A DNA stretch of 32,000 nt from Halomicronema hongdechloris C2206 (GTDB taxonomy: Bacteria > Cyanobacteriota > Cyanobacteriia > Phormidesmidales > Phormidesmidaceae), in the NCBI RefSeq assembly GCF_002075285.3, contig NZ_CP021983.2, positions 4,320,001-4,352,000 of the forward strand, read 5' to 3'. The position numbers were made by a program, and so were the translations under genes. This document shows positions 5,794-19,736 of the stretch, one piece after another. Numbering within the stretch: position 1 is the first letter of the stretch; each line of letters starts with the position of its first letter. Under the pieces are notes generated by a model, which was given only the letters and a program-made list of their open reading frames with translations, was not told the origin of the DNA and did not search any database.

Positions 5794-5822
5794 CGCTCAA
5801 ATATGGGGGCTGACAACGACAT

Positions 5823-6335
5823 TCAAGGTCGGGCCGACTGTAAGGGCGGTTGCAGAGAACGTTCTAGGATATTGTTGGATGGTTCTACAATGGCCCAGGT
5901 GCCGTCCGGATGACGCCGCAAGGTGGCAAAATGCAATATTTCCCCTGAGCCCATCGTGTCTCCGTAGCGAACAGTACCCAGGTGAGGGCGACGCAGGCCG
6001 CAAAAGCGAAATAGGTAAGCCGGCACATCTGAACTGGAAAAGTAGACACAACTGGGCTGGCCAGCAGCAGGAGCTACCTCTCCATCAAACGGGGCATGAA
6101 CTGAATCTCCTCCCAGCTCAATGGAAACATCACCTAACCCGGCTGATACTAAATAGCCGGCCACTCGATCTCCTCGGTCTAGCTCCCATTGCTGCTGTAG
6201 CACTACATGGCGGGCTGGTGGAGCAGTAGGTGTCGCTTGGCACCCACTCAGCAGGGCCAGCAGTGCAATCCCTAAACCAATAGAGATGCCATTGTTTCGC
6301 CTAAATGCGAATTTCGTAGACCAGCCCCATGTCAT
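5823..6335 (-). CDS. lipoprotein, possibly a degenerate LytM/M23-like domain
   Basis: Lipobox LALLSGC after a basic and hydrophobic leader. The C-terminal segment HAPFDGEV...GTVRYGDTMGSGEILHF resembles M23 strands, but the full set of metal ligands is missing. Its start ATG overlaps the stop of the upstream gene (TAATG at 6333-6337). Confidence 0.55.
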   Translation of the reverse strand: MTWGWSTKFAFRRNNGISIGLGIALLALLSGCQATPTAPPARHVVLQQQWELDRGDRVAGYLVSAGLGDVSIELGGDSVHAPFDGEVAPAAGQPSCVYFSSSDVPAYLFRFCGLRRPHLGTVRYGDTMGSGEILHFATLRRHPDGTWAIVEPSNNILERSLQPPLQSARP

Positions 6336-6739
6336 TATTCAAAACTGAATCGATAGCCAGCATATTCGTCTTTTTCGTAGAGAATTACGAGTCTCGTCTT
6401 GGGATCAAAAGCCAAGGGATAGGCCTCCCGCTCTGCAACCACTCCAGAACGGACTGTCAATTCTGGTAAGCGGCAATAGGGTGCGGAAACTATCTGACGC
6501 ACCCGTTCTTTGGCGTCCCGCTCAGGGATTGTTAAGAGCTGGGCGAGTTGTTCTCGGGACAACTGAGCATTGGCCTGAACAATGGTCTCACACCCCTCAG
6601 TCGTGGTTGAGGTTGCTGACTCCTGTAGCCAAGAGCGCATCCCTTGAAAATCGAATAAAAGGCCGACCGTGGCAAATACCAGGCCACCAGCAATGAGAGG
6701 TGTCACGGATAGATGAGATGACGATTGACTAGATACCAT
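6335..6739 (-). CDS. small membrane-anchored hypothetical protein
   Basis: The ATG at 6739 follows a perfect AAGGAG 6 nt upstream; the track start 6760 is a TTG. It has one N-terminal TM helix (VTPLIAGGLVFATVGLLF) and its stop is coupled to the downstream lipoprotein gene. Confidence 0.6.
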   Translation of the reverse strand: MVSSQSSSHLSVTPLIAGGLVFATVGLLFDFQGMRSWLQESATSTTTEGCETIVQANAQLSREQLAQLLTIPERDAKERVRQIVSAPYCRLPELTVRSGVVAEREAYPLAFDPKTRLVILYEKDEYAGYRFSFE

Positions 6740-6796
6740 GGCAGCTCCTTTATCGGGCAATAGGAAGTAGGCGAAGTCAAAAAAGGAGGCTCGCTA

Positions 6797-7852
6797 CTAG
6801 AACCGACCACCTACGATTAATCCAGCAACGATTAAGAGGGTTCGATAGGCTAAGGTGATGTCGATGCGGGGGGCGAGGGTAGCTCGATAGAGCGCGAAGG
6901 TGGTGCAGGCAATCACAGCGACCACCACAAAAGACCACAATCCTGGATAGGCTGCTAACACCAGGTCTAGAGCTAAACGAGCAATTACCGCTCCAGCGAA
7001 CCAGAAACAGATTTCTGTCCACCCGAGGGAGGCGGAACGACGACGATTGGAGGAGCGATGGTCAATTACCAAGACTGGTCTTAGCTTGAACCAGATGTCA
7101 CGGATCAAACTCCATGGTTCTGCCAATAGGGTGCTTAGGCCCCAATCGTCCCATCCCGGCTGAGAAGCTTGACGATGCTCAGCGAAGGTGCGATCGCGCA
7201 GGGTCCGAGCCACATCATCGGCTTCTCGCTCTGGCTGATAGAGATCCGCCGGACGGTAGGACAGCACATAGGCGCCTTGGTCGTCCTGATTAACTTGGGC
7301 CAGGATAGCCGTGGCATAGTCGCATAGCGGTATCTCACCACGCCCCTGCTGCCGATGGATCCAAGCAACGCGCTCAGCGGCCCGTTTCATCTCTAACATG
7401 GCTTGCTCTTGCTGTTGAGACAGATCATTGATTCGATCGGCCATGCTCCGCAGTCGCTGCCAGTGCAGCATCAGATCCGGCGGTGATTCTAAAGGCAGGG
7501 TAGAGACTACCGCGTTAGAACTATCTGGCTGGGATGGAGGGGGTAGCGGGGCAGGGGAGGTCGTATATTCATGGCTAGCAGATCCATGGCTAGCAGATCC
7601 ATGGCTAGTAGATCCATGGCTGGCAGATTCATGGCTGACAGTCTGATGCCTAGAACGTTGCTTCAACTGAGCAACCGTTGTGGCTAACTGAGCCAAATGC
7701 GGTGAAGCTGCCGCTGCCGCAACTGGCGACGACTGAGGTGACGTCTCAATCTCTCCCCAATCTACAGGAGGGCTAGGAGTCGAGGCATAGGATTGGCGCT
7801 GCTGCTGCAACTTTTCTCGAATGGCTTGCAAATCCATATCAGACTCGCTCAT
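6797..7852 (-). CDS. hypothetical membrane protein with (S-A/T-S-H-G)n repeat and C-terminal TM helices
   Basis: 351-codon ORF with ATG at 7852. It has a coiled-coil-like N-terminal half, an internal repeat SASHGSTSHGSASHGSASHE, and about three hydrophobic helices at the C-terminus. Confidence 0.6.
   Translation of the reverse strand: MSESDMDLQAIREKLQQQRQSYASTPSPPVDWGEIETSPQSSPVAAAAASPHLAQLATTVAQLKQRSRHQTVSHESASHGSTSHGSASHGSASHEYTTSPAPLPPPSQPDSSNAVVSTLPLESPPDLMLHWQRLRSMADRINDLSQQQEQAMLEMKRAAERVAWIHRQQGRGEIPLCDYATAILAQVNQDDQGAYVLSYRPADLYQPEREADDVARTLRDRTFAEHRQASQPGWDDWGLSTLLAEPWSLIRDIWFKLRPVLVIDHRSSNRRRSASLGWTEICFWFAGAVIARLALDLVLAAYPGLWSFVVVAVIACTTFALYRATLAPRIDITLAYRTLLIVAGLIVGGRF
7570..7640. 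repeat. 15-bp tandem repeat (CATGGCTAGCAGATC), about 4.7 copies, in frame inside the 6797..7852 CDS
   Basis: Read directly: units at 7570-7584, 7585-7599, 7600-7614 and 7615-7629, plus a partial copy. They encode the SxSHG pentapeptide repeat on the minus strand. Confidence 0.9.
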
Positions 7853-8032: not shown

Positions 8033-10795
8033 CTAGTCTTGCCGTTCCACTAGTACTAGGTTTTCGGTTACTTTTTCGAAGGTATCGTCATGGCTAATCA
8101 CGAAGAGCTGGCGGAAGGATTTGATGCGAGCGATGGCTTCCGCCAAGCTTTCTCGTCGAGCTCGATCCATATTGGTGGTGGGTTCATCAAAGAAAGCCAC
8201 ATCAATATCGGCTAAGACTTTGAGCAGGGCTAGGCGTACGGCCAGGGCAGCACACATCTGTTCGCCACCGGACAAATTTAAGAAACGACGGCGATGGGGC
8301 CCCTCTTGGACCTGAATCTCGTAATCTCGGGTCCAATCGAGGGCAATGTTGGGTCGGTTCAACAAGTCTCGCAAGAGTCGATCGGCTTCCCGGGTAATCT
8401 GCTGGACATAACGCTCAGTAATGCGTGGCCCGGCCTCTTTGTAGGTTCGACGGGCGACATTGATAAAGCGACGAATGCGATCGCATCGCTTCCGATCAGC
8501 CAGGGTGCGATCGCGGCGGGCCGCCACCTGCTTCAGGTCAGCAAGCTGCTGCTCCAACTCCTGTAGACGCTGCCGTTGCTGAGGCAGACTGCCGCCGAGG
8601 CGATCGACCTGAGACTGCAGCTCTCGATGGCGCTGTTCGATCTGGGCCAACTGCTGTGGGTCAACCCGCTGCTGCTGAGTTTGCAGTTGCTGCTGCACCC
8701 GAGCTAACTGGCTCTGATCAGCCGTCAACTCCGCTTGGGCCTGCTGCAACTCCGCCGCTACCCGAGGCTGGCGTTGGGCCTCCTGCTGATGCTGTAGATA
8801 TTGATGATAGCCGGCCTGATGAGTCGCCTGAATCTGCCGCTGCTGTTCTATGGCATCGTCTAAATCAGCAAAGGCCTGTAATTGCCGCTCCAGGTCTTTG
8901 AGGGTTTGCTGTAACCGCGCCTGGGTCGCCTGCATCTGGTTGTACTGCCGCTGCACCTGAGGCCGCTGCTGTAAGGATCGCTGCAGCACTTGGCCTTGCC
9001 CCCTAGGATCTTGCAGGGCAGCCAGAGCCGCCGTCAGATCCGATTGCTGCTGGTTCAAGGGGGCAGTGGCAGCCAGGGTTTCTGCCAAAGTAGCCAGGGT
9101 AGTCTGGAGCTGGGCCTGGTCAGCCTGGAGCTGCTGCTGTTGTTGTTGTTTCTCAGGCAGTTGGGCCACCGCGGCCTGCTGTCGATAGCGTTGCTGTACC
9201 TGCTGCTCCAGAGCTGTCAATTGCTGAGTCAAGATGTCGGGGTCAGTCTGCCCTTGCAGATCCGCCAGAATCTCCTGCAGGGCCTGCAGCATGTCCTGAT
9301 TCAAGGCCAACCCCGTCTCCAAGGCTTGCTCTAGGGAAGTCACTGCCTCTTGGGTCAGCAACGGTAGACTCTGCTGCAGTGAGGCCATCAGGGTCAAGAC
9401 GGCCTCCACCTGCTGCCGATAGTCCTGGTGACGGGTCTGATGGCGATCGACTAACTGCCGCAGATCGGCCTCAAATTGCTGGGCTGCCTCGAGACGGCTC
9501 AGGTGTTGGCGGATGCGATCGCATCGCTGCACCAACTCTGGCAAATCCTGCAACTGTGCCTGTTGAGTCTGCAGGGCATCTATCTGCTGCTGCACCTGAG
9601 TCAGGCGGCTCTCCAGGGTCGTCAATTGTCGCTGGGCCGCCTGGTGTTCCAAACGAGCTTGCTGCAGCTGTTGCAACTGCTGATTGACCTGGTTCAGCTG
9701 CGTCTCCACAGTTTGCTGCTGCTCAATGGCAGGCTGTAGTTGCTGCAACTCCGCCTCAGTCCGAGAAAAAGACTCCAGCTGCAGCTCTAACCGCGTCACC
9801 TCCGCCTGGTGCTGAGTCACCTGCCCTTGACACTGCCGATGCTGGCTGTCCAACCGTTGTCGAGCCTGATAGCGCTGATTCAGCTCGCCTAAAGTTGCCT
9901 CAGCTCCCTGGTAGGCCTCATAGGCCGACCGCTGAGTCTCACAGATCGCCACTGCCCGATTGGCCTGCTCCAGGCCCTGTTGCAATAGCTCCAAGGACCG
10001 TTCCCGTCCAGTCATTTCTGAGGTCAGAGTCTGGGCCTGGGTCTGCAATGCCTGCAACGCATCAACCTCCGCCTGGAGTTGTTGCCGTTGTGTCTGCAAC
10101 GCCGTCAAATCAGTCGTCAGCTGCTGCAGCCTAGCCTCATCGGCCTGAAGTTGGGCTTGGGCCTGGTGATGGCGCCGCTGCCACTCCGGCCAAGCCTGCA
10201 ACTGTTCCTCGTACTGGGCTAGATCCCGCTCTAGGGCTTGCACCTGGGCTTCGGCATAGCGCCGCAGGCCATTCAGCTGCTTGTATACAGCCTGATACTC
10301 ATCTACCTTGAGAATCTTGTCGAAGACCCCCTTGCGCTCCGCCGTCGGCAACAGGAAATCGGCCGTAAAGGTGCCCTGGGGCACGCCAATGGTGCGGGCA
10401 AACAACTGGGCTAGATCGGTTCCCGCTGGTACCCCCAAATGCTGCCGCAGCCACGGCATGACCTCATCTTTAATGCGGCTGTAGGGCAGCCGTTCCTGCA
10501 ATTGCGGATCATAGAGGGTATAGCCCCGGCTGGTGCAGCGCTGCACCTCGTAGGTGCGGCCATCCAGGGCCGAGACCAAGCACACCCGGGCCTGGGCACT
10601 GCTGCTGCCATTGCGAATCAAATCCTCCTTGGCATAGTCTCCCTGGTAATTAAAGAGCACCCAGGCAATGGCTTCTAGAATGCTGGTCTTACCGGCCCCA
10701 TTCTGGCCGCAAATGGCGTTGGTACCCGGCTGAAACTCGACGTGACGATCCCGGTGGGTTTTGAAATTGGTCAGGGTGACAGAGAGAATTTCCAT
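8033..10795 (-). CDS. SbcC/Rad50-like SMC-family ABC ATPase with a very Gln-rich coiled coil and no CxxC zinc hook
   Basis: Walker A GQNGAGKTS at the N-terminus. The C-terminus has signature LSGGEQ, Walker B VAFFDEPT and ISHD. About 650 aa of Q/L/A-rich heptad sequence lie between them. ATG at 10795 gives MEILSVTL...; the track start 10804 is a TTG. Confidence 0.85.
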   Translation of the reverse strand: MEILSVTLTNFKTHRDRHVEFQPGTNAICGQNGAGKTSILEAIAWVLFNYQGDYAKEDLIRNGSSSAQARVCLVSALDGRTYEVQRCTSRGYTLYDPQLQERLPYSRIKDEVMPWLRQHLGVPAGTDLAQLFARTIGVPQGTFTADFLLPTAERKGVFDKILKVDEYQAVYKQLNGLRRYAEAQVQALERDLAQYEEQLQAWPEWQRRHHQAQAQLQADEARLQQLTTDLTALQTQRQQLQAEVDALQALQTQAQTLTSEMTGRERSLELLQQGLEQANRAVAICETQRSAYEAYQGAEATLGELNQRYQARQRLDSQHRQCQGQVTQHQAEVTRLELQLESFSRTEAELQQLQPAIEQQQTVETQLNQVNQQLQQLQQARLEHQAAQRQLTTLESRLTQVQQQIDALQTQQAQLQDLPELVQRCDRIRQHLSRLEAAQQFEADLRQLVDRHQTRHQDYRQQVEAVLTLMASLQQSLPLLTQEAVTSLEQALETGLALNQDMLQALQEILADLQGQTDPDILTQQLTALEQQVQQRYRQQAAVAQLPEKQQQQQQLQADQAQLQTTLATLAETLAATAPLNQQQSDLTAALAALQDPRGQGQVLQRSLQQRPQVQRQYNQMQATQARLQQTLKDLERQLQAFADLDDAIEQQRQIQATHQAGYHQYLQHQQEAQRQPRVAAELQQAQAELTADQSQLARVQQQLQTQQQRVDPQQLAQIEQRHRELQSQVDRLGGSLPQQRQRLQELEQQLADLKQVAARRDRTLADRKRCDRIRRFINVARRTYKEAGPRITERYVQQITREADRLLRDLLNRPNIALDWTRDYEIQVQEGPHRRRFLNLSGGEQMCAALAVRLALLKVLADIDVAFFDEPTTNMDRARRESLAEAIARIKSFRQLFVISHDDTFEKVTENLVLVERQD

Positions 10796-10931
10796 AGGGG
10801 ACAATTAACCAAGGGGAATTCCCTCCTCAGGATACTGATTTCCTGGCTCTCCGTCCTCTGTCCTGCCTGGGCCCCCACCTCTACAAAGCAGTGCTTTCTC
10901 CTGGCCAGATAGGATGGCTCAGCTCCTCTGT

Positions 10932-10953
10932 TTATAGGCTTCTTATAGGCTTC
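10932..10953. repeat. perfect tandem duplication of the 11-mer TTATAGGCTTC
   Basis: Read directly in the 196-bp spacer between the STAND gene stop (11001) and the SbcC-like gene. Confidence 0.9.
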
Positions 10954-11000
10954 ACAGGCCCGTTTCCCTTCCCCTCGGCAACCCGCGGCGCTCGGGCCAT

Positions 11001-13532
11001 CTATGATCGGCTCTGCAGCAGCAACAGCAGGCTGCGGCGCTGCAAGTCTGTCTGGGCCATCACAATCGCCCGACTCAAACTGCGGCCAGTCAAGCTACCG
11101 GCTGAGGATTCGGCAGCCAGAGCCGTATCTGCCTGGGAAAACAGCCCTGGGATCCAGGAAGTTGCCCCATCTTCTCGGGGGGTCAGCGATAGGGATAATC
11201 CCCCCACTACAGCCAGGGGAAGCATCGTCGCCACCAGGGCCGTCCGCACCCGTTGGTAACGGCCGCTGCGACGGCTGTGACGAACATAGTCTTGGGCTAG
11301 GGTCGACAGCCAGGTGCGATCGCACTGGAGCAGTTGCTCCGCCTGCTGCAGCCGCGCCCTAGTCAGTAAATATTCTGGATGGTGGGTGTACCCCGCCTGG
11401 CGCCATTCCTGGGCCGCCGCGTCCAGCCGCCGCTTCTGGCGCAAGATGTCACGATTGTCCTGCAACCAGCCCTGTAGCAAGGGCCAGTGGCGAATCAACG
11501 ACTCGTGAACGATTTCTAAGGTTTGATCGAGCTGCAGGGGGGTCTCCATGGCCTGGTCAGCCCAGAGATGCCCTAAGGTCAAGCCAGCATTGTTCTGGCT
11601 CCGCCAAGCAATTTGCGGTAGATGCACCCCAGGGGACGGATGCTGGCGCTGCCGAGCACCGGCATGGTTTACTACCACTAGTCGGGCCGCTACCAGCTTT
11701 TCCAGCGTTCGCCCGATTAAGTCGGTGGAGAAATCTGCGTTGATCAGCTCTTCTGTAAGGGCACGGCGGCGGGTATCGTCTCCCCCTTCCCCCAGTTCAC
11801 ACAGGGCCAGAAAGATCCGTTGGGCCGCTTGCTGTTCCTGGACCGGCAGGTCTTCATAGATAGTCGTCGCGTAGTGAGTCAAGACATGGCGAATGCCACC
11901 GAGTTCGGCGTAGGCTTCTAGGGTGAGCCTCGGCGCCTCGTCATCGGGATCAATCTGACGGGCCTTCCAGAGACTGCGTAGGGTCTGCTGCAGGAGAGGT
12001 AGCTCTCCCGGTGCCCCTACGACATCTAGCAGCAGGCTGTAAATCAGATTCTTGTCATAGGTCAGCCCTACCTTCTCAGCCGGTTTCGTGATCGCCAGCT
12101 TCATCTGCTCGTAGTCCAACGGGGCGACAGCCAGGGTGTGGCGTCGCACCAGTTGCCTAAAGTCTGGGTAGTCGTTGAAATGTCCTAGGGCATCGGCACG
12201 CAGGGAAATCACGATCCGCAGGGGCGCCTCACTGGCTTGGCTGGCGCTTACCAACTGTTGGATGAATAAGTCCCGACAATGACGGATATCTTCGGTGTCA
12301 GGGCCCTGAAAAATTTGCTCCAGGTCGTCGATAATCAGCAACATCCGTCGATCGGGCCGTCGAGAGCCAGCCAAGCAGGCCCGTATCAGCTGGGTCAGTC
12401 CATCCTGGCCATTACAGAGAAACCGCTCGGCTTGCCGCAGTTGCTCTGCCCGCTCCAGCCCATCTGCCATGGGGTTGATAAATGCCTCGGCTAGGCAGCG
12501 CAGGGGCTCGTGATCGACGCTGACATATTGAATCTTCCAGTCAGTCCGCTCGGGGCGTTGACGCAGTTGATAGATCAGGCCGGCCCGCAGCAGGGAGGTT
12601 TTCCCACTACCCGAGGCTCCCACCACGGCACAGAAGGGCTGTTGGTATACCTTGTCGATCAACTGCTGGGTTAAGTCTTCCCGGCCGAAGAAATAGTCGC
12701 CATGGATATCGTCAAAGGGTTCCATGCCGCGATAGGGACAGAAGGCAAACCGTAATTGGCGCAGTCTTTCTAGGGCCGAGGTGGGCTTGCCTTGCACAAT
12801 CGTGGTGTCTCCAGAGGCGCGAGTCAAGACGATTTCGCTGCCGGAGCTTTCGAAGAGGGGCTGTTGCAGTTCGCCTTTGAGCCGCTGACTAACCCGCTCA
12901 GCCAGATGATAGTTGCTGACAATGCCCCCATCCGTGCGGTTGGGGTTGAGCCCGGCCACCAAAGCAGCCGTGAAGACACTGTGGGCATTGTCTAAGGCTT
13001 CGTAGGCGGCTTCGTACTCCCGGGAGGCCGCCATAAATAGGCGGTCGGTGCCATCTTGGGCCCCTGGGTCAGCCTCTAGAAAGCTCATAAATTCGCCGCT
13101 GTGGCAACAGTCTAAAATCACGACCCGTTGCCGTACCGGACTCTCTTGCAGCAGTCGCCGCAGCCAGAATAGCGAGATGCCGTAGCGCCCTTGGGCCGGG
13201 TTGGTATCGCTGGTGGCTAAATAGCCCTCCCGCACCCCAGCATGGCGCTGTAAGCCATGGCCCGAGTAGTAAAACACGGCTGTGTGGGGAATGTTTTTAC
13301 CGTTGGGCTTGAAGAGGTGTACCAAGGCCGCTTCTAGCTCCTCGGTGGTCACACCGGTCTGGAGACCCACCGAGGGCTTACCCGCGTGAATCACTTCGGG
13401 CAGTCGCCGGACTCGAAACTCTCCGTAGATTTGCAAGCAACTGGCCACGGCTTCAGCGTCTTTCGCTGGCGCACTCAATGATGGCAAGGCTTGGTAACTA
13501 TTGATTCCTACAATCAGTGCATCCCGTGACAT
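11001..13532 (-). CDS. caspase-like (peptidase C14, orthocaspase) domain fused to a STAND/NACHT-like P-loop NTPase, with a C-terminal TM helix and a short tail
   Basis: Caspase dyad context YYSGHG and LDCCHSG in the first ~170 aa. Then FCPYRGMEPF...FFGRE, Walker A GASGSGKTS and Walker B LLIIDDLEQ, followed by a helical region, a hydrophobic helix ALVATMLPLAVVGGLSLSL and 60 more residues. ATG at 13532 follows AAGGGG; the track start 13541 is a GTG. Confidence 0.85.
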   Translation of the reverse strand: MSRDALIVGINSYQALPSLSAPAKDAEAVASCLQIYGEFRVRRLPEVIHAGKPSVGLQTGVTTEELEAALVHLFKPNGKNIPHTAVFYYSGHGLQRHAGVREGYLATSDTNPAQGRYGISLFWLRRLLQESPVRQRVVILDCCHSGEFMSFLEADPGAQDGTDRLFMAASREYEAAYEALDNAHSVFTAALVAGLNPNRTDGGIVSNYHLAERVSQRLKGELQQPLFESSGSEIVLTRASGDTTIVQGKPTSALERLRQLRFAFCPYRGMEPFDDIHGDYFFGREDLTQQLIDKVYQQPFCAVVGASGSGKTSLLRAGLIYQLRQRPERTDWKIQYVSVDHEPLRCLAEAFINPMADGLERAEQLRQAERFLCNGQDGLTQLIRACLAGSRRPDRRMLLIIDDLEQIFQGPDTEDIRHCRDLFIQQLVSASQASEAPLRIVISLRADALGHFNDYPDFRQLVRRHTLAVAPLDYEQMKLAITKPAEKVGLTYDKNLIYSLLLDVVGAPGELPLLQQTLRSLWKARQIDPDDEAPRLTLEAYAELGGIRHVLTHYATTIYEDLPVQEQQAAQRIFLALCELGEGGDDTRRRALTEELINADFSTDLIGRTLEKLVAARLVVVNHAGARQRQHPSPGVHLPQIAWRSQNNAGLTLGHLWADQAMETPLQLDQTLEIVHESLIRHWPLLQGWLQDNRDILRQKRRLDAAAQEWRQAGYTHHPEYLLTRARLQQAEQLLQCDRTWLSTLAQDYVRHSRRSGRYQRVRTALVATMLPLAVVGGLSLSLTPREDGATSWIPGLFSQADTALAAESSAGSLTGRSLSRAIVMAQTDLQRRSLLLLLQSRS

Positions 13533-14139
13533 AATTCGCACCCCTTACAAGCGTCTAACCTTAATAAATAAAGTGAAGACTTTTAATGATGGCCACAGAA
13601 ATCACCATGTGCAAAAGCGATTTTCGGGCCAAAACAACAAAGCATTTTCGGGCAAGGAATTCTATTTCCTATGGCTCATAACTACTTGAGACCAAACCTT
13701 TTTATCTTGAGTGATTGCAGTCACATTGAAGATTGATTTAGGTCACAGTCCCATTTGAGTTGCCATAAACAATCCCTTCATCCCTGTGATATCAAGATAT
13801 CTGGGTTTTCATAAAAAACTTAAGAGGGGTAAGACCCTACATGTTTTGTCGATAGATTCGGGGAAAATACAATTTCTTTATCTCACCTTTAAATCTACCT
13901 CAGGAGAAACACGGATACGTTCGTAGAGCGATCAGCAAAAACCCTTAGTAAGCCCTTTTACAGGATTGATAATGCCAAGTAAGACAACCGCAATTAGACT
14001 TAATTTTGTCAACTCAAACCTTGATCATAAATCTTGCTTCAAGTCGGAAAATCAGTTGTTTTTGTTTGCTGGTTGTGTGAATAGACGCTGGGATACCTGA
14101 ACAACCAGCGAATTTGTGCCTATCTGTGCCGATGCGATC

Positions 14140-14164
14140 GCATCTCCATAGCATCTCCATAGCA
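14140..14164. repeat. 11-bp tandem repeat GCATCTCCATA, about 2.3 copies, abutting a HIP1 site
   Basis: Read directly, 60-85 bp upstream of the likely hydrolase start at 14225. Confidence 0.85.
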
Positions 14165-14224
14165 ATCACTGACAGCTTTGGGAATACCGTGGATTACCCT
14201 CTAAATAGATACCGAGGGCACATC

Positions 14225-15148
14225 ATGTTCGTTCCCCCTGACTTTGACGTCCGCTCTGTCGTTACTCCCTTGGGTACCATGGCGGCCGTGGTGCCTGGCC
14301 CAGAGGTGGTGCAGGCCGCCGATGATAGGCCATTGCTGGTATTTCTCCACGGCTTTGGTGGTGGCTCATCTCAATATGAGTGGTCACTGGTGTATCCAGC
14401 CTTCACCGCAGCGTATCGAGTGATTGCCGCCGATCTGCTGGGCTGGGGCGCCTCGGATCATCCCGCCCGTAATTACACCCTAGAGGACTATTTACAGTCC
14501 ATTCGGGCATTCCTAGCCCAGGTAGCCGATGGCCGCCCCGTGACGGTAGTGGCTTCGTCGCTGACGGCAGCGATGATCGCACGGCTGGCCAAGACGCATC
14601 CTGAGCAGTTTCAAGCCTTGATTTTGGTAGCGCCTGCTGGTCTATCGGACTTTGGAGAAGACTACGGAAATAGCCTGATTGCGCAACTGGTGAGAATTCC
14701 GGTGCTCGATCGGGTGCTCTATGCCAGTGCCATTGCCACCGAAGTCGGGATTAGCAATTTCCTAGAACAACGGCAATTTGCCAATCCCAGCCGGGTGACC
14801 CCAGAAATGGTCAAGGCTTATCTAAAGTCAGCAACTCAGCCTAATGCTGAGTATGCAGCCTTGGCCTTTGTGCGCGGCAACCTGTGCTTCGACGTGGCTA
14901 AGGATGTGGCGACCTTGACGGTGCCGACGGTCTTGCTGTGGGGTGAGCAGGCTCAATTGACGCCAGTGGAGCTAGGCCGTCGCCTAGCCGCGCTCAATCC
15001 TGAGGCCATTCAGGCATTGGAGGTGATCTCGGCTGTCGGCCTCACCCCCCAGTTAGAACAGCCAGGGGTGACCATCGGGTTGTTGTATAAGTGGTTGCCT
15101 CGATTGCATGCTGCAGGTAGCAAAGATACCCACACAACTACTGCTTAA
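14225..15148 (+). CDS. alpha/beta-fold hydrolase
   Basis: LVFLHGFGGGSS (oxyanion-hole HG region), a nucleophile-elbow-like VVASSLTAAM, and a typical length of about 307 aa. The track ORF begins at 14114, but that leader runs through HIP1 and tandem-repeat sequence, so ATG 14225 (MFVPPDF) is preferred. Confidence 0.8.
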   Translation: MFVPPDFDVRSVVTPLGTMAAVVPGPEVVQAADDRPLLVFLHGFGGGSSQYEWSLVYPAFTAAYRVIAADLLGWGASDHPARNYTLEDYLQSIRAFLAQVADGRPVTVVASSLTAAMIARLAKTHPEQFQALILVAPAGLSDFGEDYGNSLIAQLVRIPVLDRVLYASAIATEVGISNFLEQRQFANPSRVTPEMVKAYLKSATQPNAEYAALAFVRGNLCFDVAKDVATLTVPTVLLWGEQAQLTPVELGRRLAALNPEAIQALEVISAVGLTPQLEQPGVTIGLLYKWLPRLHAAGSKDTHTTTA

Positions 15149-15964: not shown

Positions 15965-17112
15965 TAGCAACCCTAAATGAGTTTAGAATGGGTAGTATAT
16001 AAATATCATCAAGCTGTCAATACAGTTGTACTCATGAATAGTTTTCAATTAGAACACCAACAAAAAGTAGATAATCGTGCTATTCTATCAGACTTTATAA
16101 GTAGTAATCCTGATTCAAGAGAGCTTAAGCGAGCATTGGCTGTAAAAATGGCATTGGAGGGTGAGCCATATTTTAAGATTACCAAATTTCTGGGAATAAA
16201 CAAGTCTTTTATTACATATTGGAAGAACAGATTCGAAGCACAAGGCATTGAAGGTATTAAACTCGGCTACCAAGGATCAAAAAGTTACCTAACCCCAGAT
16301 GATCGTACAGAAATTATCTCGTGGCTGAGAACCAGAAACTACTGGAACTTTGATGAATTAGTTTCATATTTAGATGAACATTATGATGTGATTTACAAGT
16401 CTAAGCAAAGCTACTATACACTTTTTTCGGAAGCAGGTATTAGTTGGAAGAAATCTCAAAAAACCAACCCGAAATCTGATCCAGCTCTAGTCAAAAAAAA
16501 AGAGAAGAAATCCAAGGATTTATCCGTCAAAACCAGTTCAAAATTTGAGTCTGGGGAATTGATTGTACTTTTTTTGGATGAGTGTCATCTCCTTTGGGGT
16601 GATGTTTGTGGATATGTCTGGGGCAAGACAGATATGCGAATCGAAATCCCTATTACAAACGAGAGAATCAGGCAAACATATTATGGCGCATTAAACTATC
16701 AAACAAAAGAATTTATTTTGCATCCTTACGAGAAAGGGAATGGAGAGAATACAGTTGCTTTTATGAAGTACTTGCAGGAACAAAATCCTGGGAAGCAAAT
16801 CGCATTAATTTGGGATGGCGCTAGTTATCATAAGTCACAAGAGATCAAAGATTTTTTAGCTACAGTCAATCATGGGAAGGAAGAGACAGAATGGCAATTC
16901 AAATGTATTCTATTTGCACCCAATTCACCAGAACAAAATCCAGTGGAAGATGTTTGGTTACAAGCCAAAAATTCATTGAGAAGATTTTGGAGGTTGTGTC
17001 GTTCTTTCCCCGCTGTAAAGTATCTGTTTGAGTTCTTTATAGATCATCAAAAGTTCGATTTTTCTAAAATAGAAGAATATTCACCTTGTTCATAAATCAA
17101 CTGGGATTGCTA
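15965..17112 (+). mobile_element. IS630-family insertion sequence (about 1.15 kb) with TA target-site duplication
   Basis: Terminal inverted repeats are TAGCAACCC... on the left and ...GGGATTGCTA on the right. TA sits at 15963-15964 and again at 17113-17114. There is a single DDE transposase ORF, and the element is clearly more AT-rich than its flanks. Confidence 0.85.
15977..17095 (+). CDS. IS630-family (Tc1/mariner-like DDE) transposase
   Basis: N-terminal HTH region, then LFLDECHL ... IWDGASYHKS ... PNSPEQNPVEDVW, the DD..E triad context of IS630 transposases. The real start may be the internal Met at 16034. Confidence 0.85.
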   Translation: MSLEWVVYKYHQAVNTVVLMNSFQLEHQQKVDNRAILSDFISSNPDSRELKRALAVKMALEGEPYFKITKFLGINKSFITYWKNRFEAQGIEGIKLGYQGSKSYLTPDDRTEIISWLRTRNYWNFDELVSYLDEHYDVIYKSKQSYYTLFSEAGISWKKSQKTNPKSDPALVKKKEKKSKDLSVKTSSKFESGELIVLFLDECHLLWGDVCGYVWGKTDMRIEIPITNERIRQTYYGALNYQTKEFILHPYEKGNGENTVAFMKYLQEQNPGKQIALIWDGASYHKSQEIKDFLATVNHGKEETEWQFKCILFAPNSPEQNPVEDVWLQAKNSLRRFWRLCRSFPAVKYLFEFFIDHQKFDFSKIEEYSPCS

Positions 17113-19458
17113 TAGTGCTTTCCAATGGGCGCGGCGGATGCGATTGACGGTGAGTTGTGCAGGGGAGGCGGAGGCTTGGGGACGATGCTGGGGCCAGAAT
17201 TTACCGCCGAAGTGGGCCAGCTTATCGCTGAGTTCCTTCTTCAAATAGGCGATCTGGTCATGGCGATCCATCTGCTCTAGATTGCTGAGTTTGACCGCGA
17301 TGCGATCGCGCCAGCTGGGAGATCCCGACGCCAGGCTCTGGGGTCCTTGCCGATCCAGAATGGCCACTAGGCCCACTGGCAACCCCTGGGCCCAGAGTTG
17401 CTGGGCCATTTCGAAGGCCACCATGCTGCCGAAGGAATGGCCCCCCAACAGGTAGGGTCCCTGGGGCTGTACGGCTCGAATCACCTCGATATAGGCGGCA
17501 GCCATGGCTTCGATGCTGTCGTAGGGGAGATCTTCACCATTGAGACCCTGAGCCTGGAGCCCATAGACTGGATACTCTGGGCCTAAATATTGGGCTAGCT
17601 GACGAAAGTACAGCACATTGCCGCCAAGCCCATGGACACAGAAAAAGGGAGGGGGGTCACCATGGGGCTGCAGAGGAACTAGGGTGGCCCAGGAAATGGC
17701 GGCGTCTTGGCGCTGCAGCACTCGGGCTAACTGCTGAATTGTGGGGGCCTGGAGCAAGGTGGCCAGGGGTAAGCGCACCTGGAATTGCTCTTCGATGCCG
17801 CTAAATAATTGCAGTGCTTGTAGGGAGGTGCCCCCTAGGTCGAAGAAGTTGTCGGTGACGCCGAGGGTTGGCTGGTTGAGTACGGCTGTCCAGAGATGTA
17901 ATAAGTGATTCTCTAGAGGGGTCTGCGGACTAATTAAGGCTGATGGGGCCAGTTTTGTCGATGGCTGGATGTGGGAAGCGAGGGGGGGTATGGGAAGGCG
18001 CTCAATAGGTTGCTCCAGATCCTGTGCGATCGCATCCAGGCAATGCTCGTAGGTTTGCAGTAGAGTAGCAATGGTATCCGAGTGAAATTGACTCTGACGA
18101 TACTCTAACCGGGCCACAAAAGTGTCTTGCCGTTGCTGCCAGAAGCAGGATAGGTCGAAATCGGTGGTCTGTTTAGGCAAGTGCAGAGGATAAACCGTTG
18201 CATTTGGTAGTTGCAACTGCCCCTGCCGGGCATCTAATAGGGCAAATAAGACCCGTGATAAGGCACTCGCGGTTACCCCTGACAACTCGCCTAATCGCTG
18301 AAAGGGGGCATCTTGATGCTCCAGAGCCGAGAGAACGACCTCTTTGACACATATCAATAACTGCTTAAAGCTGGGGAAATTGGAGAGGTCGCAGCGCAGC
18401 GGCACAATGTTGTTAAAATACCCCACGAGGGATTGTATTTCTGGCCGGTTACGGCCTGCAACCGGGGTACAGACCACCACATCTTCCTGCCCACCATAGC
18501 GATGAACCGTGGCCACAAAGGCAGCCAGTAAAACCGTGAAGGGAGTCGTGTGCAACTGAGCGGCTACCTGACTAATGGTGCTAGATAGTTGGGACGAAAG
18601 CACCAGAGTTTGGTCAGCGGCCCGATAATCAACCGGATTTGAGGTCAGAGCGTCTACCGGCAACTGCAGGGGAGCACACTTGGCCAACTGGTTCTGCCAA
18701 TAGGTCAGGTGAGGGACTAAAATGGCGTCTTGGAGCCATCGTCGCTGCCACAGCGCAAAATCAGCATATTGAATCGGTAGTGGTGACCAGGGAAGCGGCT
18801 GTCGAGTCTGAATAGCCTGATAAGCCATTCCTAAATCCCCCCAGAAAATGCCCTCTGAATGCCCATCAAATACTAGATGATGAATCCCCAAGCCCAGGAT
18901 GTAAGTATGCTCATCCAGCCGGAGCACAATTCCCCTGAGCAAGGGCGCATGGGTCAGGTCGAAGGGAGCATTTACGGCATTCTGAAGTATCTGCAGAGCC
19001 TGATGCTGACGGTCTTGAGCTGGCACAGATCGTAGGTCCAACTGAGTCAATGGGACTGCCACCTCGGCTTCAATCGCCTGCACCGGTTGACCATCAACCA
19101 CCCTAAAGGCCGTTCGTAGGGCCTCATGGCGGTTAATTACTGCGGCTAAACTGTGTTCTAGGATGTGGGGGTCGAAGTTGCCCCGAACTTGGAAGCCATA
19201 GGTAATCGTGTGAGCCCCTGGCCTCAGCGCTTCTAGGAACCACAAACGCTCTTGGGAAAAGGACAAGGGTAATCGCTGCTGGCGAGAGACTGGAGCTAAG
19301 GGGGGCGCCTGATTCTGGGCTGCCATGACTGCTTGAATCGCTTGCCAGAAGTCATGCTCAGGTTTTTCCGGTTGCCCTCTAGACACCTCATCAGGGATTG
19401 GAGCGCCCTCTGAGGATAGGGAAAAAGCGTGGGAATCGGATTGTTCTGATAACCCCAT
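17110..19458 (-). CDS. NRPS-like condensation - peptidyl carrier - thioesterase protein (no adenylation domain), 3'-truncated by IS630 insertion
   Basis: C-domain active site HHLVFDGHS, carrier motif LGGTSLQAL, and TE nucleophile GHSFGSMVAFE. The current stop TAG (17110-17112) is supplied by the IS terminus. Confidence 0.85.
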   Translation of the reverse strand: MGLSEQSDSHAFSLSSEGAPIPDEVSRGQPEKPEHDFWQAIQAVMAAQNQAPPLAPVSRQQRLPLSFSQERLWFLEALRPGAHTITYGFQVRGNFDPHILEHSLAAVINRHEALRTAFRVVDGQPVQAIEAEVAVPLTQLDLRSVPAQDRQHQALQILQNAVNAPFDLTHAPLLRGIVLRLDEHTYILGLGIHHLVFDGHSEGIFWGDLGMAYQAIQTRQPLPWSPLPIQYADFALWQRRWLQDAILVPHLTYWQNQLAKCAPLQLPVDALTSNPVDYRAADQTLVLSSQLSSTISQVAAQLHTTPFTVLLAAFVATVHRYGGQEDVVVCTPVAGRNRPEIQSLVGYFNNIVPLRCDLSNFPSFKQLLICVKEVVLSALEHQDAPFQRLGELSGVTASALSRVLFALLDARQGQLQLPNATVYPLHLPKQTTDFDLSCFWQQRQDTFVARLEYRQSQFHSDTIATLLQTYEHCLDAIAQDLEQPIERLPIPPLASHIQPSTKLAPSALISPQTPLENHLLHLWTAVLNQPTLGVTDNFFDLGGTSLQALQLFSGIEEQFQVRLPLATLLQAPTIQQLARVLQRQDAAISWATLVPLQPHGDPPPFFCVHGLGGNVLYFRQLAQYLGPEYPVYGLQAQGLNGEDLPYDSIEAMAAAYIEVIRAVQPQGPYLLGGHSFGSMVAFEMAQQLWAQGLPVGLVAILDRQGPQSLASGSPSWRDRIAVKLSNLEQMDRHDQIAYLKKELSDKLAHFGGKFWPQHRPQASASPAQLTVNRIRRAHWKAL

Positions 19459-19466
19459 GATCTTGC

Positions 19467-19730
19467 CTAAGCATCAACTGGAACACCTTGCTTCTGGCAC
19501 AGTAGGTGCATGATATTGCCTACTGTCTTGAAGTTCTCCAGAGTAATCTCGGTGGCCTCAAACTGCAGATTAAATTCAGTCTGCAAGCTGAAAATCAAGG
19601 TCATAGCGTTGATGGAATCCAGCCCCATTTCAAAGAGATTGCTATCTTCCTTGAGATTTTCCGGGTGGGCATAGGGCAGGATGGACTGAATAACGGCATG
19701 GATCCTTTGAGTAGTTGTATTAGAAGTCAT
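19467..19730 (-). CDS. acyl/aryl carrier protein
   Basis: 87 aa with the phosphopantetheine attachment motif GLDSINAMTL. It lies between the adenylating enzyme and the C-T-TE gene, with gaps of only 6-8 bp. Confidence 0.8.
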   Translation of the reverse strand: MTSNTTTQRIHAVIQSILPYAHPENLKEDSNLFEMGLDSINAMTLIFSLQTEFNLQFEATEITLENFKTVGNIMHLLCQKQGVPVDA

Positions 19731-19736
19731 GACAGA

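What the first reader, a model, noticed from the sequence alone, without database searches (positions are those of the whole stretch)
11001..13541. Caspase-STAND NTPase-TM protein with almost no sensor domain: candidate conflict or programmed-cell-death module
Seen in sequence: an N-terminal C14 caspase-like domain has an intact His/Cys dyad context (SGHG, DCCHSG). It is fused to a P-loop NTPase (GASGSGKTS, LLIIDDLE) and a helical region. A hydrophobic helix follows, and only 60 more residues come after it.

Established knowledge: cyanobacterial orthocaspases and STAND NTPases with N-terminal effector domains are well-described architectural classes linked to cell death and anti-phage conflict systems. 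Relatives usually continue into WD40 or TPR sensor repeats after the equivalent of the LAAES...SLLLLLQS segment.

Inference: this copy is either a truncated derivative or a minimal membrane-tethered variant whose trigger is sensed differently. The 196-bp downstream spacer shows no recognisable repeat-domain remnant, only an 11-bp tandem duplication.
Basis: partly seen in the sequence, partly recalled or inferred. Interest (0 to 1): 0.7.

Follow-up and report, generated by a model that had tools for sequence, protein, structure and literature searches.

The report
Membrane-anchored caspase–STAND protein, minimal tail
This cyanobacterial gene encodes an intact protease-plus-ATPase switch protein held in a membrane by one helix; unlike its relatives it has no sensor domain, it belongs to a known class, and in many species it sits next to a Rad50-like ATPase gene.

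Summary
ORF 11001-13532 (-) encodes 843 aa; the true start is the ATG at 13532, not the GTG at 13541. It contains a Peptidase_C14 domain with a conserved His92/Cys143 dyad, a full-length nSTAND1 NTPase, one hydrophobic helix (residues 763-783) and a 60-aa tail. It is 100% identical to a Halomicronema hongdechloris protein that NCBI names 'sulfatase-modifying factor'.

WD40 relatives exist but form a separate clade (26 of 170 sequences). The query sits among 144 'short forms'. These carry a 30-325 aa proline/alanine/serine-rich tail after the helix, with no matching Pfam family, and no TPR.

The query's tail is among the shortest and has no detectable homologue. It is nonetheless under purifying selection (dN/dS 0.07; last 31 aa 0.03) against an 87%-identical sister species that ends four codons later. 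So it is a maintained minimal variant, not a decaying truncation.

The gene behaves like a vertically inherited lineage gene, not a defence-island gene. In 37 non-redundant loci a 920-aa Rad50-like ATPase without a zinc hook lies directly downstream.

The likely mechanism is NTP-driven oligomerisation activating the caspase at the membrane. The trigger is unknown. This is a new variant of a known kind.

The parts
11001..13532 (-). Complete CDS of the caspase-nSTAND1-TM protein (843 aa plus stop; start ATG 13532, not GTG 13541)
   Evidence: ORF list. 100% identical to the 843-aa P0001 from Halomicronema hongdechloris C2206. The start context is conserved with L001.
12846..13520 (-). Peptidase_C14 (orthocaspase) domain, residues 5-229
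   Evidence: Pfam PF00656, 65.8 bits against a cut-off of 21.4. The AF2 model gives a caspase-type alpha/beta sheet. Foldseek hits MALT1 and the yeast metacaspase Yca1.
13254..13265 (-). SGHG motif containing the catalytic His92
   Evidence: His92 and Gly93 are invariant in 40 sequences. Coordinates.
13095..13112 (-). DCCHSG motif containing the catalytic Cys143
   Evidence: Asp141, Cys142, Cys143, Ser145 and Gly146 are invariant. Coordinates.
11388..12737 (-). nSTAND1 NTPase module (P-loop, helical and winged-helix parts), residues 266-715
   Evidence: Pfam PF20703, 351.9 bits, profile positions 1-376 of 379. Foldseek hits Cdc6/Orc1, the NRC4 resistosome and CED-4.
12594..12620 (-). Walker A, GASGSGKTS (residues 305-313)
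   Evidence: Gly305, Ser307, Gly310, Lys311 and Ser313 are invariant. Coordinates.
12318..12341 (-). Walker B, LLIIDDLE (residues 398-405)
   Evidence: Asp402 and Glu405 are invariant. Coordinates.
11184..11246 (-). Predicted single transmembrane helix (residues 763-783), preceded by the basic stretch RHSRRSGRYQRVR
   Evidence: Kyte-Doolittle mean 2.0. K/R count is 6 before and 1 after. A hydrophobic segment and charge bias at this position were measured across 170 family members. It is part of the long AF2 helix 744-783.
11004..11183 (-). 60-aa C-terminal tail: a disordered part (785-822) followed by a predicted helix (819-842, SLSRAIVMAQTDLQRRSLLLLLQ). Lineage-specific.
   Evidence: No homologue in the family or among 1.84 billion representative proteins. 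No Pfam family. dN/dS against L001 is 0.07, and 0.033 for the last 31 aa.
10805..11000 (.). 196-bp spacer to the next gene, containing the 11-bp tandem duplication GAAGCCTATAA x2 at 10932-10953
   Evidence: Sequence read. No remnant of relatives' tails in any frame. The spacer is only 83 bp in the sister genome. No convincing terminator or minus-strand promoter.
8033..10795 (-). Conserved downstream neighbour: a 920-aa Rad50/SbcC-like ABC ATPase with a long Gln-rich coiled coil and no CxxC zinc hook
   Evidence: Pfam SMC_N/AAA_23. NCBIfam Rad50 at 231 bits, below the cut-off of 700. Best PDB matches are archaeal Rad50 heads. None of 120 homologues has CxxC. It lies directly downstream on the same strand in 37 non-redundant loci.
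13533..14113 (.). Upstream intergenic region with sequence islands conserved with the sister genome, including GATATCTTGATATC at 13788-13801. No partner ORF (EACC1- or Pepco-like) is present.
   Evidence: Alignment with L001. The only ORF here is 51 aa, with no hydrophobic stretch in its translation (ORF list). No Rfam match.

Best explanation
The gene encodes a functional, selectively maintained, single-pass membrane protein. The N-terminal orthocaspase and the nSTAND1 NTPase face the cytoplasm. One C-terminal helix anchors the protein in the plasma or thylakoid membrane. Only 60 residues lie on the far side.

It belongs to a vertically inherited group of orthologues in thin filamentous cyanobacteria (record titles name Phormidesmis, Nodosilinea and Leptolyngbya-type organisms). 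In this group the part after the helix is a short tail with no matching Pfam family, not the WD40 propellers of the sister clade. The Halomicronema lineage has reduced that tail further and evolved its own conserved terminal helix.

Inferred mechanism: like other STAND proteins (Apaf-1/CED-4, Avs), nucleotide exchange drives oligomerisation. This brings the caspase domains together at the membrane and activates them to cut substrates, leading to cell death or a stress response.

Because there is no repeat sensor, the trigger must arrive some other way: through the helix and tail, through the conserved cytosolic helical region, or from a partner protein. The adjacent hookless Rad50-like ATPase is the most obvious candidate partner.

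Shown here: domain integrity, conservation, selection, phylogenetic placement and gene neighbourhood. Inferred: topology, oligomerisation, proteolytic output and trigger.
For: - **Domains and motifs.** Both domains and all catalytic motifs are intact and invariant.
- **Structure.** The AF2 model has pLDDT 78 with confident caspase, NTPase and long-helix segments. Foldseek links it to metacaspase/MALT1 and to Cdc6/CED-4/NRC4.
- **Membrane helix.** The hydrophobic helix scores KD 2.0. Positive-inside bias across the family is a median of 5 K/R before and 1 after. In relatives, 54 of 144 short-form sequences have at least two Cys in their last 45 residues, which may form a disulfide on the non-cytoplasmic side.
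- **Selection.** dN/dS against an 87%-identical species is 0.08 overall, 0.07 for the tail and 0.033 for the last 31 aa.
- **Placement.** The NJ tree places the query among the short forms, and the WD40 forms fall in one separate clade.
- **Neighbour.** The Rad50-like gene lies directly downstream in 37 non-redundant loci, while other neighbours change. In further loci it lies close by in a divergent arrangement. Pairwise distances of the two proteins correlate at r=0.93, Mantel p=0.001.
- **Literature.** The class, including 'transmembrane STAND ATPases' fused to proteases, is documented (PMC8195603, PMC7159879, PMC12642450).
Against: - No experiment on any member of this group was found.
- The helix is only moderately hydrophobic by a rough unweighted sum of biological-scale values (my own estimate of about +1.9 kcal/mol). 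Only 65% of short forms reach KD 1.6. No dedicated TM predictor was available.
- No known caspase substrate module (EACC1, Pepco, MBL) is adjacent. So the output is unknown.
- The Rad50-like gene is widespread and stands alone in 31 of 49 loci anchored on it. The adjacency could therefore be inherited gene order rather than function.
- Core-like, slow evolution and the lack of a defence island argue against a classical anti-phage role.
- dS is saturated (about 0.9-1.7), so dN/dS values are approximate.
Confidence: 0.6

Rival explanations
1. Two-gene system. The hookless Rad50-like ATPase and the caspase-nSTAND1-TM protein work together. For example, the ATPase detects DNA ends, damage or foreign DNA and switches on the membrane-bound caspase; alternatively, the ATPase is the caspase's substrate.
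For: - The gene lies directly downstream on the same strand, with a gap of 65-250 bp, in 37 non-redundant loci across several families, while the flanks differ.
- It is never next to the WD40 forms.
- A second, divergent arrangement keeps the two genes within about 1.6 kb.
- The two proteins' distances correlate at r=0.93.
- The best PADLOC hit for the ATPase is Lamassu LmuB (1.3e-39).
Against: - The ATPase family appears in only one cluster per named organism among the listed hits. It occurs without any caspase nearby in 31 of 49 anchored loci and in L088-L090.
- Some short-form caspase genes lack it.
- Correlated distances are expected for any two vertically inherited genes.
- The LmuB hit reflects general Rad50/SMC similarity.
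- No literature links the two.
Confidence: 0.25
2. Classical anti-phage Avs-like defence protein. Its sensor is the cytosolic helical/winged-helix region or the membrane, and infection triggers abortive cell death.
For: - STAND proteins with an N-terminal protease are experimentally shown defence proteins in other families (PMC12642450).
- nSTAND1 is described in conflict systems (PMC8195603, PMC10907252).
- There is a PADLOC 'caspase' hit (1.4e-15).
Against: - No Avs model is hit.
- There is no repeat sensor.
- There is no defence island.
- The gene shows orthologous, syntenic, slowly evolving behaviour: mean distance 0.37, lower than its Rad50-like neighbour, and dN/dS 0.08.
- No partner toxin gene is present.
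Confidence: 0.2
3. A degenerating truncation of a longer WD40-bearing or long-tail gene, that is, a pseudogene in the making.
For: - The tail is the fourth shortest among 144 short-form sequences.
- It lacks the C-terminal [IV][EQ][IV]W motif present in 114 of 144.
- Truncated WD40 forms do exist (P0098; E=1.5e-9 against the long-form profile).
Against: - All catalytic residues are intact.
- The tail is under purifying selection and its end is conserved in a second species.
- No remnant lies in the spacer.
- Similar very short tails (30-41 aa) occur in other branches that have intact cytosolic parts.
Confidence: 0.05
4. The hydrophobic helix is not a membrane span. It is a buried or coiled-coil oligomerisation helix of a soluble protein.
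For: - Hydrophobicity is only moderate in part of the family (minimum KD 1.08).
- WD40 propellers are usually cytoplasmic, yet they follow the same helix in the long forms.
Against: - The query has 20 uncharged residues flanked by a strongly basic N-side.
- Short-form tails are rich in Pro/Ala/Ser/Thr.
- The literature refers to 'transmembrane STAND ATPases' (PMC12642450).
Confidence: 0.1

Closest known systems
Cyanobacterial caspase-nSTAND1-TM-WD40 proteins (the long forms, e.g. L028, L044), described as a class by Kaur, Burroughs, Iyer and Aravind
   Same: They share the N-terminal Peptidase_C14, the full nSTAND1 module, the HESLIRxWPLL region and a hydrophobic helix at the same position. 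Identity over the first ~780 residues is about 50%.
   Different: The long forms carry 580-1060 residues after the helix: a helical cap plus at least 11 WD40 repeats. The query has 60 residues with no similarity to that region. The long forms fall in a separate clade and are never next to the Rad50-like gene.
Short-form orthologues (900-990 aa; e.g. Nodosilinea nodulosa P0092, Phormidesmis P0032)
   Same: The cytosolic architecture, membrane helix and downstream Rad50-like neighbour are the same.
   Different: They have 100-190 aa tails ending in a conserved SPxNPxxx[IV][EQ][IV]W motif, often with a Cys pair. The query and its sister species lack this motif and have an unrelated terminal helix.
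EACC1-caspase-STAND systems (e.g. Ktedonobacter KrAvs12 plus EACC1; PMC12642450, PMC7159879)
   Same: Both have a caspase domain fused to a STAND NTPase, and the caspase resembles the EACC1-associated type (NF047832, 101 bits).
   Different: The score is below the family cut-off of 140. There is no EACC1 gene upstream, no soluble repeat sensor, and the protein itself is membrane-anchored.
Apaf-1/CED-4 apoptosome with caspase-9/CED-3
   Same: Both combine a STAND-type NTPase switch with a caspase-fold protease. CED-4 and an NLR resistosome are structural hits.
   Different: Here protease and switch are one polypeptide, which is membrane-anchored and has no WD40 or LRR sensor. The homology lies only at the level of the AAA+/STAND and caspase folds.
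Characterised orthocaspase MaOC1 of Microcystis (per the reviews PMC5756287 and PMC8283722)
   Same: Both are prokaryotic C14 proteases with a His-Cys dyad. The Asp before the catalytic Cys (Asp141) suggests Arg/Lys specificity, but that is my inference, not a test.
   Different: From my own knowledge, MaOC1 has no NTPase module or membrane anchor; this was not checked here. The survey of 473 orthocaspases lists AAA_16 in 60 and TM helices in 67.

Membership tests
Peptidase C14 (caspase/metacaspase/orthocaspase) | Match to PF00656 above the gathering score | tested here: met
   65.8 bits against a cut-off of 21.4, covering residues 8-232.
Peptidase C14 (caspase/metacaspase/orthocaspase) | Catalytic His-Cys dyad in the canonical motifs after beta-strands 3 and 4 | tested here: met
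   SGHG (His92) follows strand 84-90 and DCCHSG (Cys143) ends strand 135-143 in the AF2 model. Both residues are invariant in 40 sequences.
Peptidase C14 (caspase/metacaspase/orthocaspase) | Caspase-hemoglobinase fold | tested here: met
   Foldseek hits MALT1 and the Yca1 and Candida metacaspases, with probability 1.0 and TM-score (target) 0.44-0.58.
Peptidase C14 (caspase/metacaspase/orthocaspase) | Proteolytic activity and P1 specificity | not testable with these tools
   This needs enzyme assays.
nSTAND1 NTPase (PF20703) | Full-length match to the family model | tested here: met
   351.9 bits against a cut-off of 27.1, profile positions 1-376 of 379.
nSTAND1 NTPase (PF20703) | Intact Walker A and Walker B | tested here: met
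   GASGSGKTS and LLIIDDLE are present, with Lys311 and Asp402 invariant.
STAND architecture in the usual sense (effector, NTPase, C-terminal repeat sensor) | C-terminal superstructure-forming repeats (WD40/TPR/LRR) or a lectin sensor | tested here: not met
   No Pfam family lies beyond residue 718. The tail has no homologue.
STAND architecture in the usual sense (effector, NTPase, C-terminal repeat sensor) | Nucleotide-dependent oligomerisation | not testable with these tools
   This needs biochemistry.
EACC1-caspase two-gene conflict system | Caspase of the EACC1-associated type (NF047832 at or above 140 bits) | tested here: not met
   101.3 bits, below the cut-off.
EACC1-caspase two-gene conflict system | EACC1 (single-TM) gene immediately 5' of the caspase gene | tested here: not met
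   The 580-bp upstream region holds only one 51-aa ORF, with no hydrophobic stretch in its translation. The next gene is a divergent alpha/beta hydrolase.
Avs (antiviral STAND) defence proteins | Match to Avs models, or a sensor domain that binds phage proteins | tested here: not met
   PADLOC gives only a generic 'caspase' hit and weak P-loop hits. No sensor domain is present.
Avs (antiviral STAND) defence proteins | Protection against phage | not testable with these tools
   This needs a phage challenge.
Lamassu (LmuA effector plus LmuB SMC-like ATPase), considered for the gene pair | LmuB-type SMC-like ATPase | tested here: inconclusive
   The neighbour's best PADLOC hit is LmuB (1.3e-39). 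However, it covers residues 4-475 only, and the protein scores better as Rad50 (231 bits).
Lamassu (LmuA effector plus LmuB SMC-like ATPase), considered for the gene pair | LmuA-type effector protein adjacent | tested here: not met
   The caspase protein hits no LmuA model.
SbcCD / Mre11-Rad50 (for the neighbour) | CxxC zinc hook at the coiled-coil apex | tested here: not met
   None of 120 family members has CxxC in residues 300-650.
SbcCD / Mre11-Rad50 (for the neighbour) | Adjacent SbcD/Mre11 nuclease gene | tested here: not met
   The four ORFs downstream have no Pfam, NCBIfam or PADLOC match. None is present in L005, L007 or L088-L090.

The most novel reading that the evidence does not exclude
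The membrane-anchored caspase-nSTAND1 protein and the adjacent hookless Rad50-like ATPase form a previously undescribed two-component module of filamentous cyanobacteria. It would couple sensing of DNA or chromosome state (damage, or foreign or replicating DNA) to a membrane-located caspase switch. This would be a sensor-less STAND protein that receives its input from an SMC-family partner, and a conserved lineage function rather than a mobile defence gene.
Probability: 0.18. Interest if true: 0.75.

Novelty: new variant of a known kind. Interest (0 to 1): 0.45.

Why it matters
STAND-caspase proteins are the bacterial counterparts of apoptosome and inflammasome machines. Almost everything known about how they are triggered concerns their repeat or lectin sensors.

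A widespread, slowly evolving group that keeps the protease, the switch and a membrane anchor but has little or no sensor raises the question of how a STAND switch is triggered without one. The Halomicronema protein is close to the minimal natural version, which makes it a convenient test case.

The recurrent pairing with a hookless Rad50-like ATPase, if functional, would link DNA surveillance to a caspase in bacteria.

On the practical side, the public annotation 'sulfatase-modifying factor protein' is wrong for this protein.

Tried and rejected
- **Remnant of the missing C-terminus.** I ran tblastn with the last 150 aa of 119 homologues against 10600-11400 and inspected all three frames. Nothing significant lies beyond the stop codon.
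- **Homology of the 60-aa tail.** All of the following were negative:
  - phmmer against the family's tails;
  - hmmsearch with a profile of the region after the helix in long forms (E=0.83);
  - hhalign (E=0.46);
  - Pfam;
  - phmmer against 1.84 billion representatives (0 hits).
  By eye, SRAIVMAQTDLQ resembles the long forms' SRARAAIAQSILQ and FSQADTALAAESSAGS resembles a WD40 blade. I dropped both resemblances as statistically unsupported.
- **Relatives' C-terminal motif as a relic WD40 blade.** hhalign gave probability 37% and P=3.6e-4. Both alignments were anchored on the Trp, so the test is biased, and the spacing is about 7 residues shorter than in a WD40 repeat. I left this as a hint only.
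- **Divergent alpha/beta hydrolase (14114-15148) as a caspase substrate.** Such pairs are described in PMC12642450. Here the hydrolase is conserved only in L001, L002 and L014 among the 87 loci searched and is generic by NCBIfam. I judged the adjacency coincidental.
- **Sequence search of the PDB.** Neither the protein nor the family profile gave anything useful. Only the fold search was informative.
- **Promoter/terminator scan of the spacer.** Not informative.
- **Rfam on the whole window.** No match.
- **Literature.** Nothing was found on Halomicronema caspases or on a caspase-Rad50/SbcC link.


Full report
**1. What is there**

The minus-strand ORF 11001..13541 is real. Every homologue begins MSRDAL. 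The ATG at 13532, preceded by GGGG, is conserved in the sister genome. The CDS is therefore 11001-13532, encoding 843 aa. It is 100% identical to a protein of Halomicronema hongdechloris C2206, which NCBI names 'sulfatase-modifying factor protein'. That name is not justified, because no FGE-sulfatase domain is present.

Pfam finds two domains:
- Peptidase_C14 at residues 8-232 (65.8 bits).
- A full-length nSTAND1 NTPase at residues 269-718 (351.9 bits, profile positions 1-376 of 379).

In a 40-sequence alignment at about 50% identity, the catalytic His92 and Cys143, the Walker A Lys311 and the Walker B Asp402 are invariant.

An AlphaFold2 model (mean pLDDT 78) gives a caspase-type sheet, a P-loop/helical/winged-helix module and one long helix at 744-783. 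Residues 241-250, 625-666 and 785-822 are disordered, and a low-confidence helix covers 819-842. Foldseek against the PDB returns Cdc6/Orc1, the NRC4 resistosome and CED-4 for the NTPase part, and MALT1 and the yeast metacaspase Yca1 for the protease part.

The hydrophobic segment at residues 764-783 has a Kyte-Doolittle mean of 2.0. It has six Arg/Lys in the 15 residues before it and one after, and 60 residues follow it. The 196-bp spacer holds no remnant of a longer C-terminus. It contains the 11-bp duplication GAAGCCTATAA x2 at 10932-10953.

**2. The family**

The protein search found 1721 relatives at E<=1e-10, and every source organism named among the best 120 is a cyanobacterium. I added 80 loci from species-representative genomes and extended each hit to its stop codon. 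This gave 170 distinct sequences, which fall into two classes.

- **Short forms (144 sequences, 807-1098 aa).** A hydrophobic helix at the same position is followed by 30-325 residues (median 134.5). These tails are rich in Pro, Ala, Ser and Thr, and the four scanned match no Pfam family. In 114 of 144 they end in a small motif, roughly SPxNPxxx[IV][EQ][IV]W. In 54 of 144 there are at least two Cys in the last 45 residues.
- **Long forms (26 sequences, 1324-1893 aa).** The same helix is followed by a helical cap and at least 11 WD40 repeats.

In a neighbour-joining tree of the first ~780 residues, the long forms make one clade and the query plus its sister sit among the short forms. No TPR form was seen.

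The family-wide positive-inside bias (median 5 K/R before the helix, 1 after) supports a topology with the caspase and NTPase in the cytoplasm and the tail outside. This is the same layout as PknB-type receptor kinases (my comparison). A 2025 preprint explicitly mentions 'transmembrane STAND ATPases' fused to proteases (PMC12642450).

**3. The tail of this copy**

At 60 residues it is the fourth shortest among the 144 short forms. The shorter ones are 30, 30 and 41 residues, and its sister species has 64. The query tail lacks the family's C-terminal motif. It has no detectable homologue:
- phmmer against all family tails;
- a profile of the long forms' region after the helix (E=0.83);
- hhalign (E=0.46);
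- Pfam;
- phmmer against 1.84 billion cluster representatives (0 hits).

Yet it is not decaying. The only close relative (P0002, 87% identity, from two JGI metagenomes, fully syntenic) ends four codons later. Between the two genes, dN/dS is 0.08 overall, 0.07 for the tail and 0.033 for its last 31 residues, which is as low as the caspase domain at 0.03. dS is near saturation, so these ratios are approximate.

Very short tails also occur in other branches that have intact cytosolic parts, such as P0086/L038 and L036. The ectodomain therefore appears dispensable or replaceable, whereas the protease, the switch and the anchor are kept. This favours 'minimal membrane-tethered variant' over 'truncated remnant'.

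**4. Context**

The neighbourhood is not a defence island. It contains a divergent generic alpha/beta hydrolase, an IS630-type transposase with low GC, NRPS genes, an IS5, a FUR gene and four conserved ORFs with no family match. There is no EACC1, Pepco or MBL partner gene. The caspase scores below the cut-off of the EACC1-associated type (101 against 140 bits).

The striking feature is the gene directly downstream (8033-10795). It encodes a 920-aa Rad50/SbcC-like ABC ATPase with a Gln-rich coiled coil. Its best PDB matches are archaeal Rad50 heads. NCBIfam gives Rad50 at 231 bits, below the cut-off. The best PADLOC hit is LmuB. None of its 120 closest homologues has a CxxC zinc hook, and no SbcD gene is adjacent.

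The evidence for an association with the caspase gene is as follows.
- A homologue lies on the same strand, 65-250 bp downstream of the caspase gene, in 37 non-redundant loci including this window. It is never next to a long form.
- Other neighbours are conserved only within one subclade.
- When loci were anchored on the ATPase in metagenome contigs, 18 of 49 had a caspase-nSTAND1 gene within 5 kb upstream. These comprised 11 in the same orientation and 7 divergent; L105 is an example of the divergent arrangement.
- The other 31 had none, as was also the case in L088-L090.
- Pairwise distances of the two proteins across 34 pairs correlate strongly (r=0.93, Mantel p=0.001). The caspase protein is the slower-evolving of the two, with mean distance 0.37 against 0.43.

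The pair is therefore co-inherited and its adjacency is retained while the flanks change. That pattern suggests a functional link but does not prove one. I found no paper connecting orthocaspases with SbcC, Rad50 or SMC proteins.

**5. How it most likely works**

Shown:
- intact protease and NTPase motifs;
- a membrane-type helix with cytoplasm-in charge bias;
- purifying selection on every segment;
- orthology with the short forms;
- the conserved neighbour.

Inferred from what is established for STAND proteins (Apaf-1/CED-4, and Avs with protease effectors; PMC12642450): nucleotide exchange drives oligomerisation, which brings the caspase domains together and activates them. Here this would happen at a membrane. 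The Asp before the catalytic Cys suggests metacaspase-like Arg/Lys specificity, but that is an inference.

With no repeat sensor, the input must come from one of three sources:
- the helix and tail (envelope or lumen state);
- the conserved cytosolic helical region (HESLIRHWPLL...);
- a partner protein, with the Rad50-like ATPase the obvious candidate.

The slow, vertical, syntenic evolution fits a conserved lineage function, such as regulated proteolysis or cell death under stress or DNA damage. It fits less well with a fast-turnover anti-phage gene, although that role is not excluded.

**6. Comparison and novelty**

The protein is a bona fide member of Peptidase_C14 and of nSTAND1. It does not meet the tests for the EACC1 system, for Avs or for Lamassu. 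It lacks the C-terminal sensor that is typical of STAND architectures.

Surveys have noted caspase plus AAA_16 in 60 of 473 cyanobacterial orthocaspases and TM helices in 67 (PMC8283722). I did not find the short-tail membrane-anchored subgroup, or its pairing with a hookless Rad50-like ATPase, described anywhere.

This is a new variant of a known kind, of moderate interest (0.45). The more novel two-gene reading has a probability of about 0.18.

Noticed in passing
window 8033-10795 (-), and loci L005, L007, L011-L027 and others: A 920-aa Rad50/SbcC-like ABC ATPase with a Gln-rich coiled coil. None of 120 homologues has a CxxC zinc hook, and no SbcD gene is adjacent. The family is common in filamentous cyanobacteria and very constant in length. 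It is the conserved downstream neighbour of short-form caspase-nSTAND1 genes.
   Followed up: partly
Relatives P0003-P0120, last ~40 residues (e.g. P0092, P0004, P0032): Short-form relatives end in a small conserved motif, roughly SPxNPxxx[IV][EQ][IV]W, present in 114 of 144. In 54 of 144 there are at least two Cys in the last 45 residues, suggesting a disulfide on the non-cytoplasmic side. No Pfam family matches. hhalign against a WD40 repeat unit gives only a weak, biased hint (probability 37%). The motif is absent from the window protein.
   Followed up: partly
L105 758-3397 (-) and 5001-7763 (+); also L096, L101, L106, L107, L147: There is a second arrangement in which the caspase-nSTAND1-TM gene and the Rad50-like gene are divergent and about 1.6 kb apart. 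A small 114-aa ORF lies just before the ATPase gene.
   Followed up: partly
window 4198-7852 (-): Four consecutive ORFs (351, 141, 170 and 531 aa) have no Pfam, NCBIfam or PADLOC match. By my reading of the translations, several have hydrophobic or signal-like segments and low-complexity Pro/Ser/Ala regions. The set recurs near the Rad50-like gene and a FUR gene in L001, L007, L038, L052, L082 and L090.
   Followed up: no
window 15977-17095 (+) and 21377-22423 (-): An IS630-type DDE_3 transposase sits in a block with GC 0.36 that is absent from the syntenic sister contig L001. An IS5-family transposase lies beside NRPS-type genes (17110-21167), whose products are shorter than in L001 (782 against 858 aa, and 476 against 519 aa). 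This could reflect IS-associated change.
   Followed up: no
window 13533-14113, e.g. 13788-13801: The intergenic region upstream of the caspase gene has several islands conserved with the sister genome, including the repeat GATATCTTGATATC. These are candidate regulatory sites.
   Followed up: no
P0098, P0102, P0120, L050 (about 856 aa): These relatives are genuine truncated WD40 forms. After the helix they keep the helical cap and about one WD40 blade (E=1.5e-9 against the long-form profile). L050 branches at the base of the long-form clade.
   Followed up: partly
L090 6734-7993 (+) (Leptolyngbya sp. PCC 6406): Here a trypsin-PDZ (HtrA-like) protease gene ends 8 bp before the Rad50-like ATPase gene. 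This is the position that the caspase gene occupies in other genomes.
   Followed up: no
window 11001-13532 (-): The public annotation of this protein as 'sulfatase-modifying factor protein' is unsupported, because no FGE-sulfatase domain is detected.
   Followed up: yes
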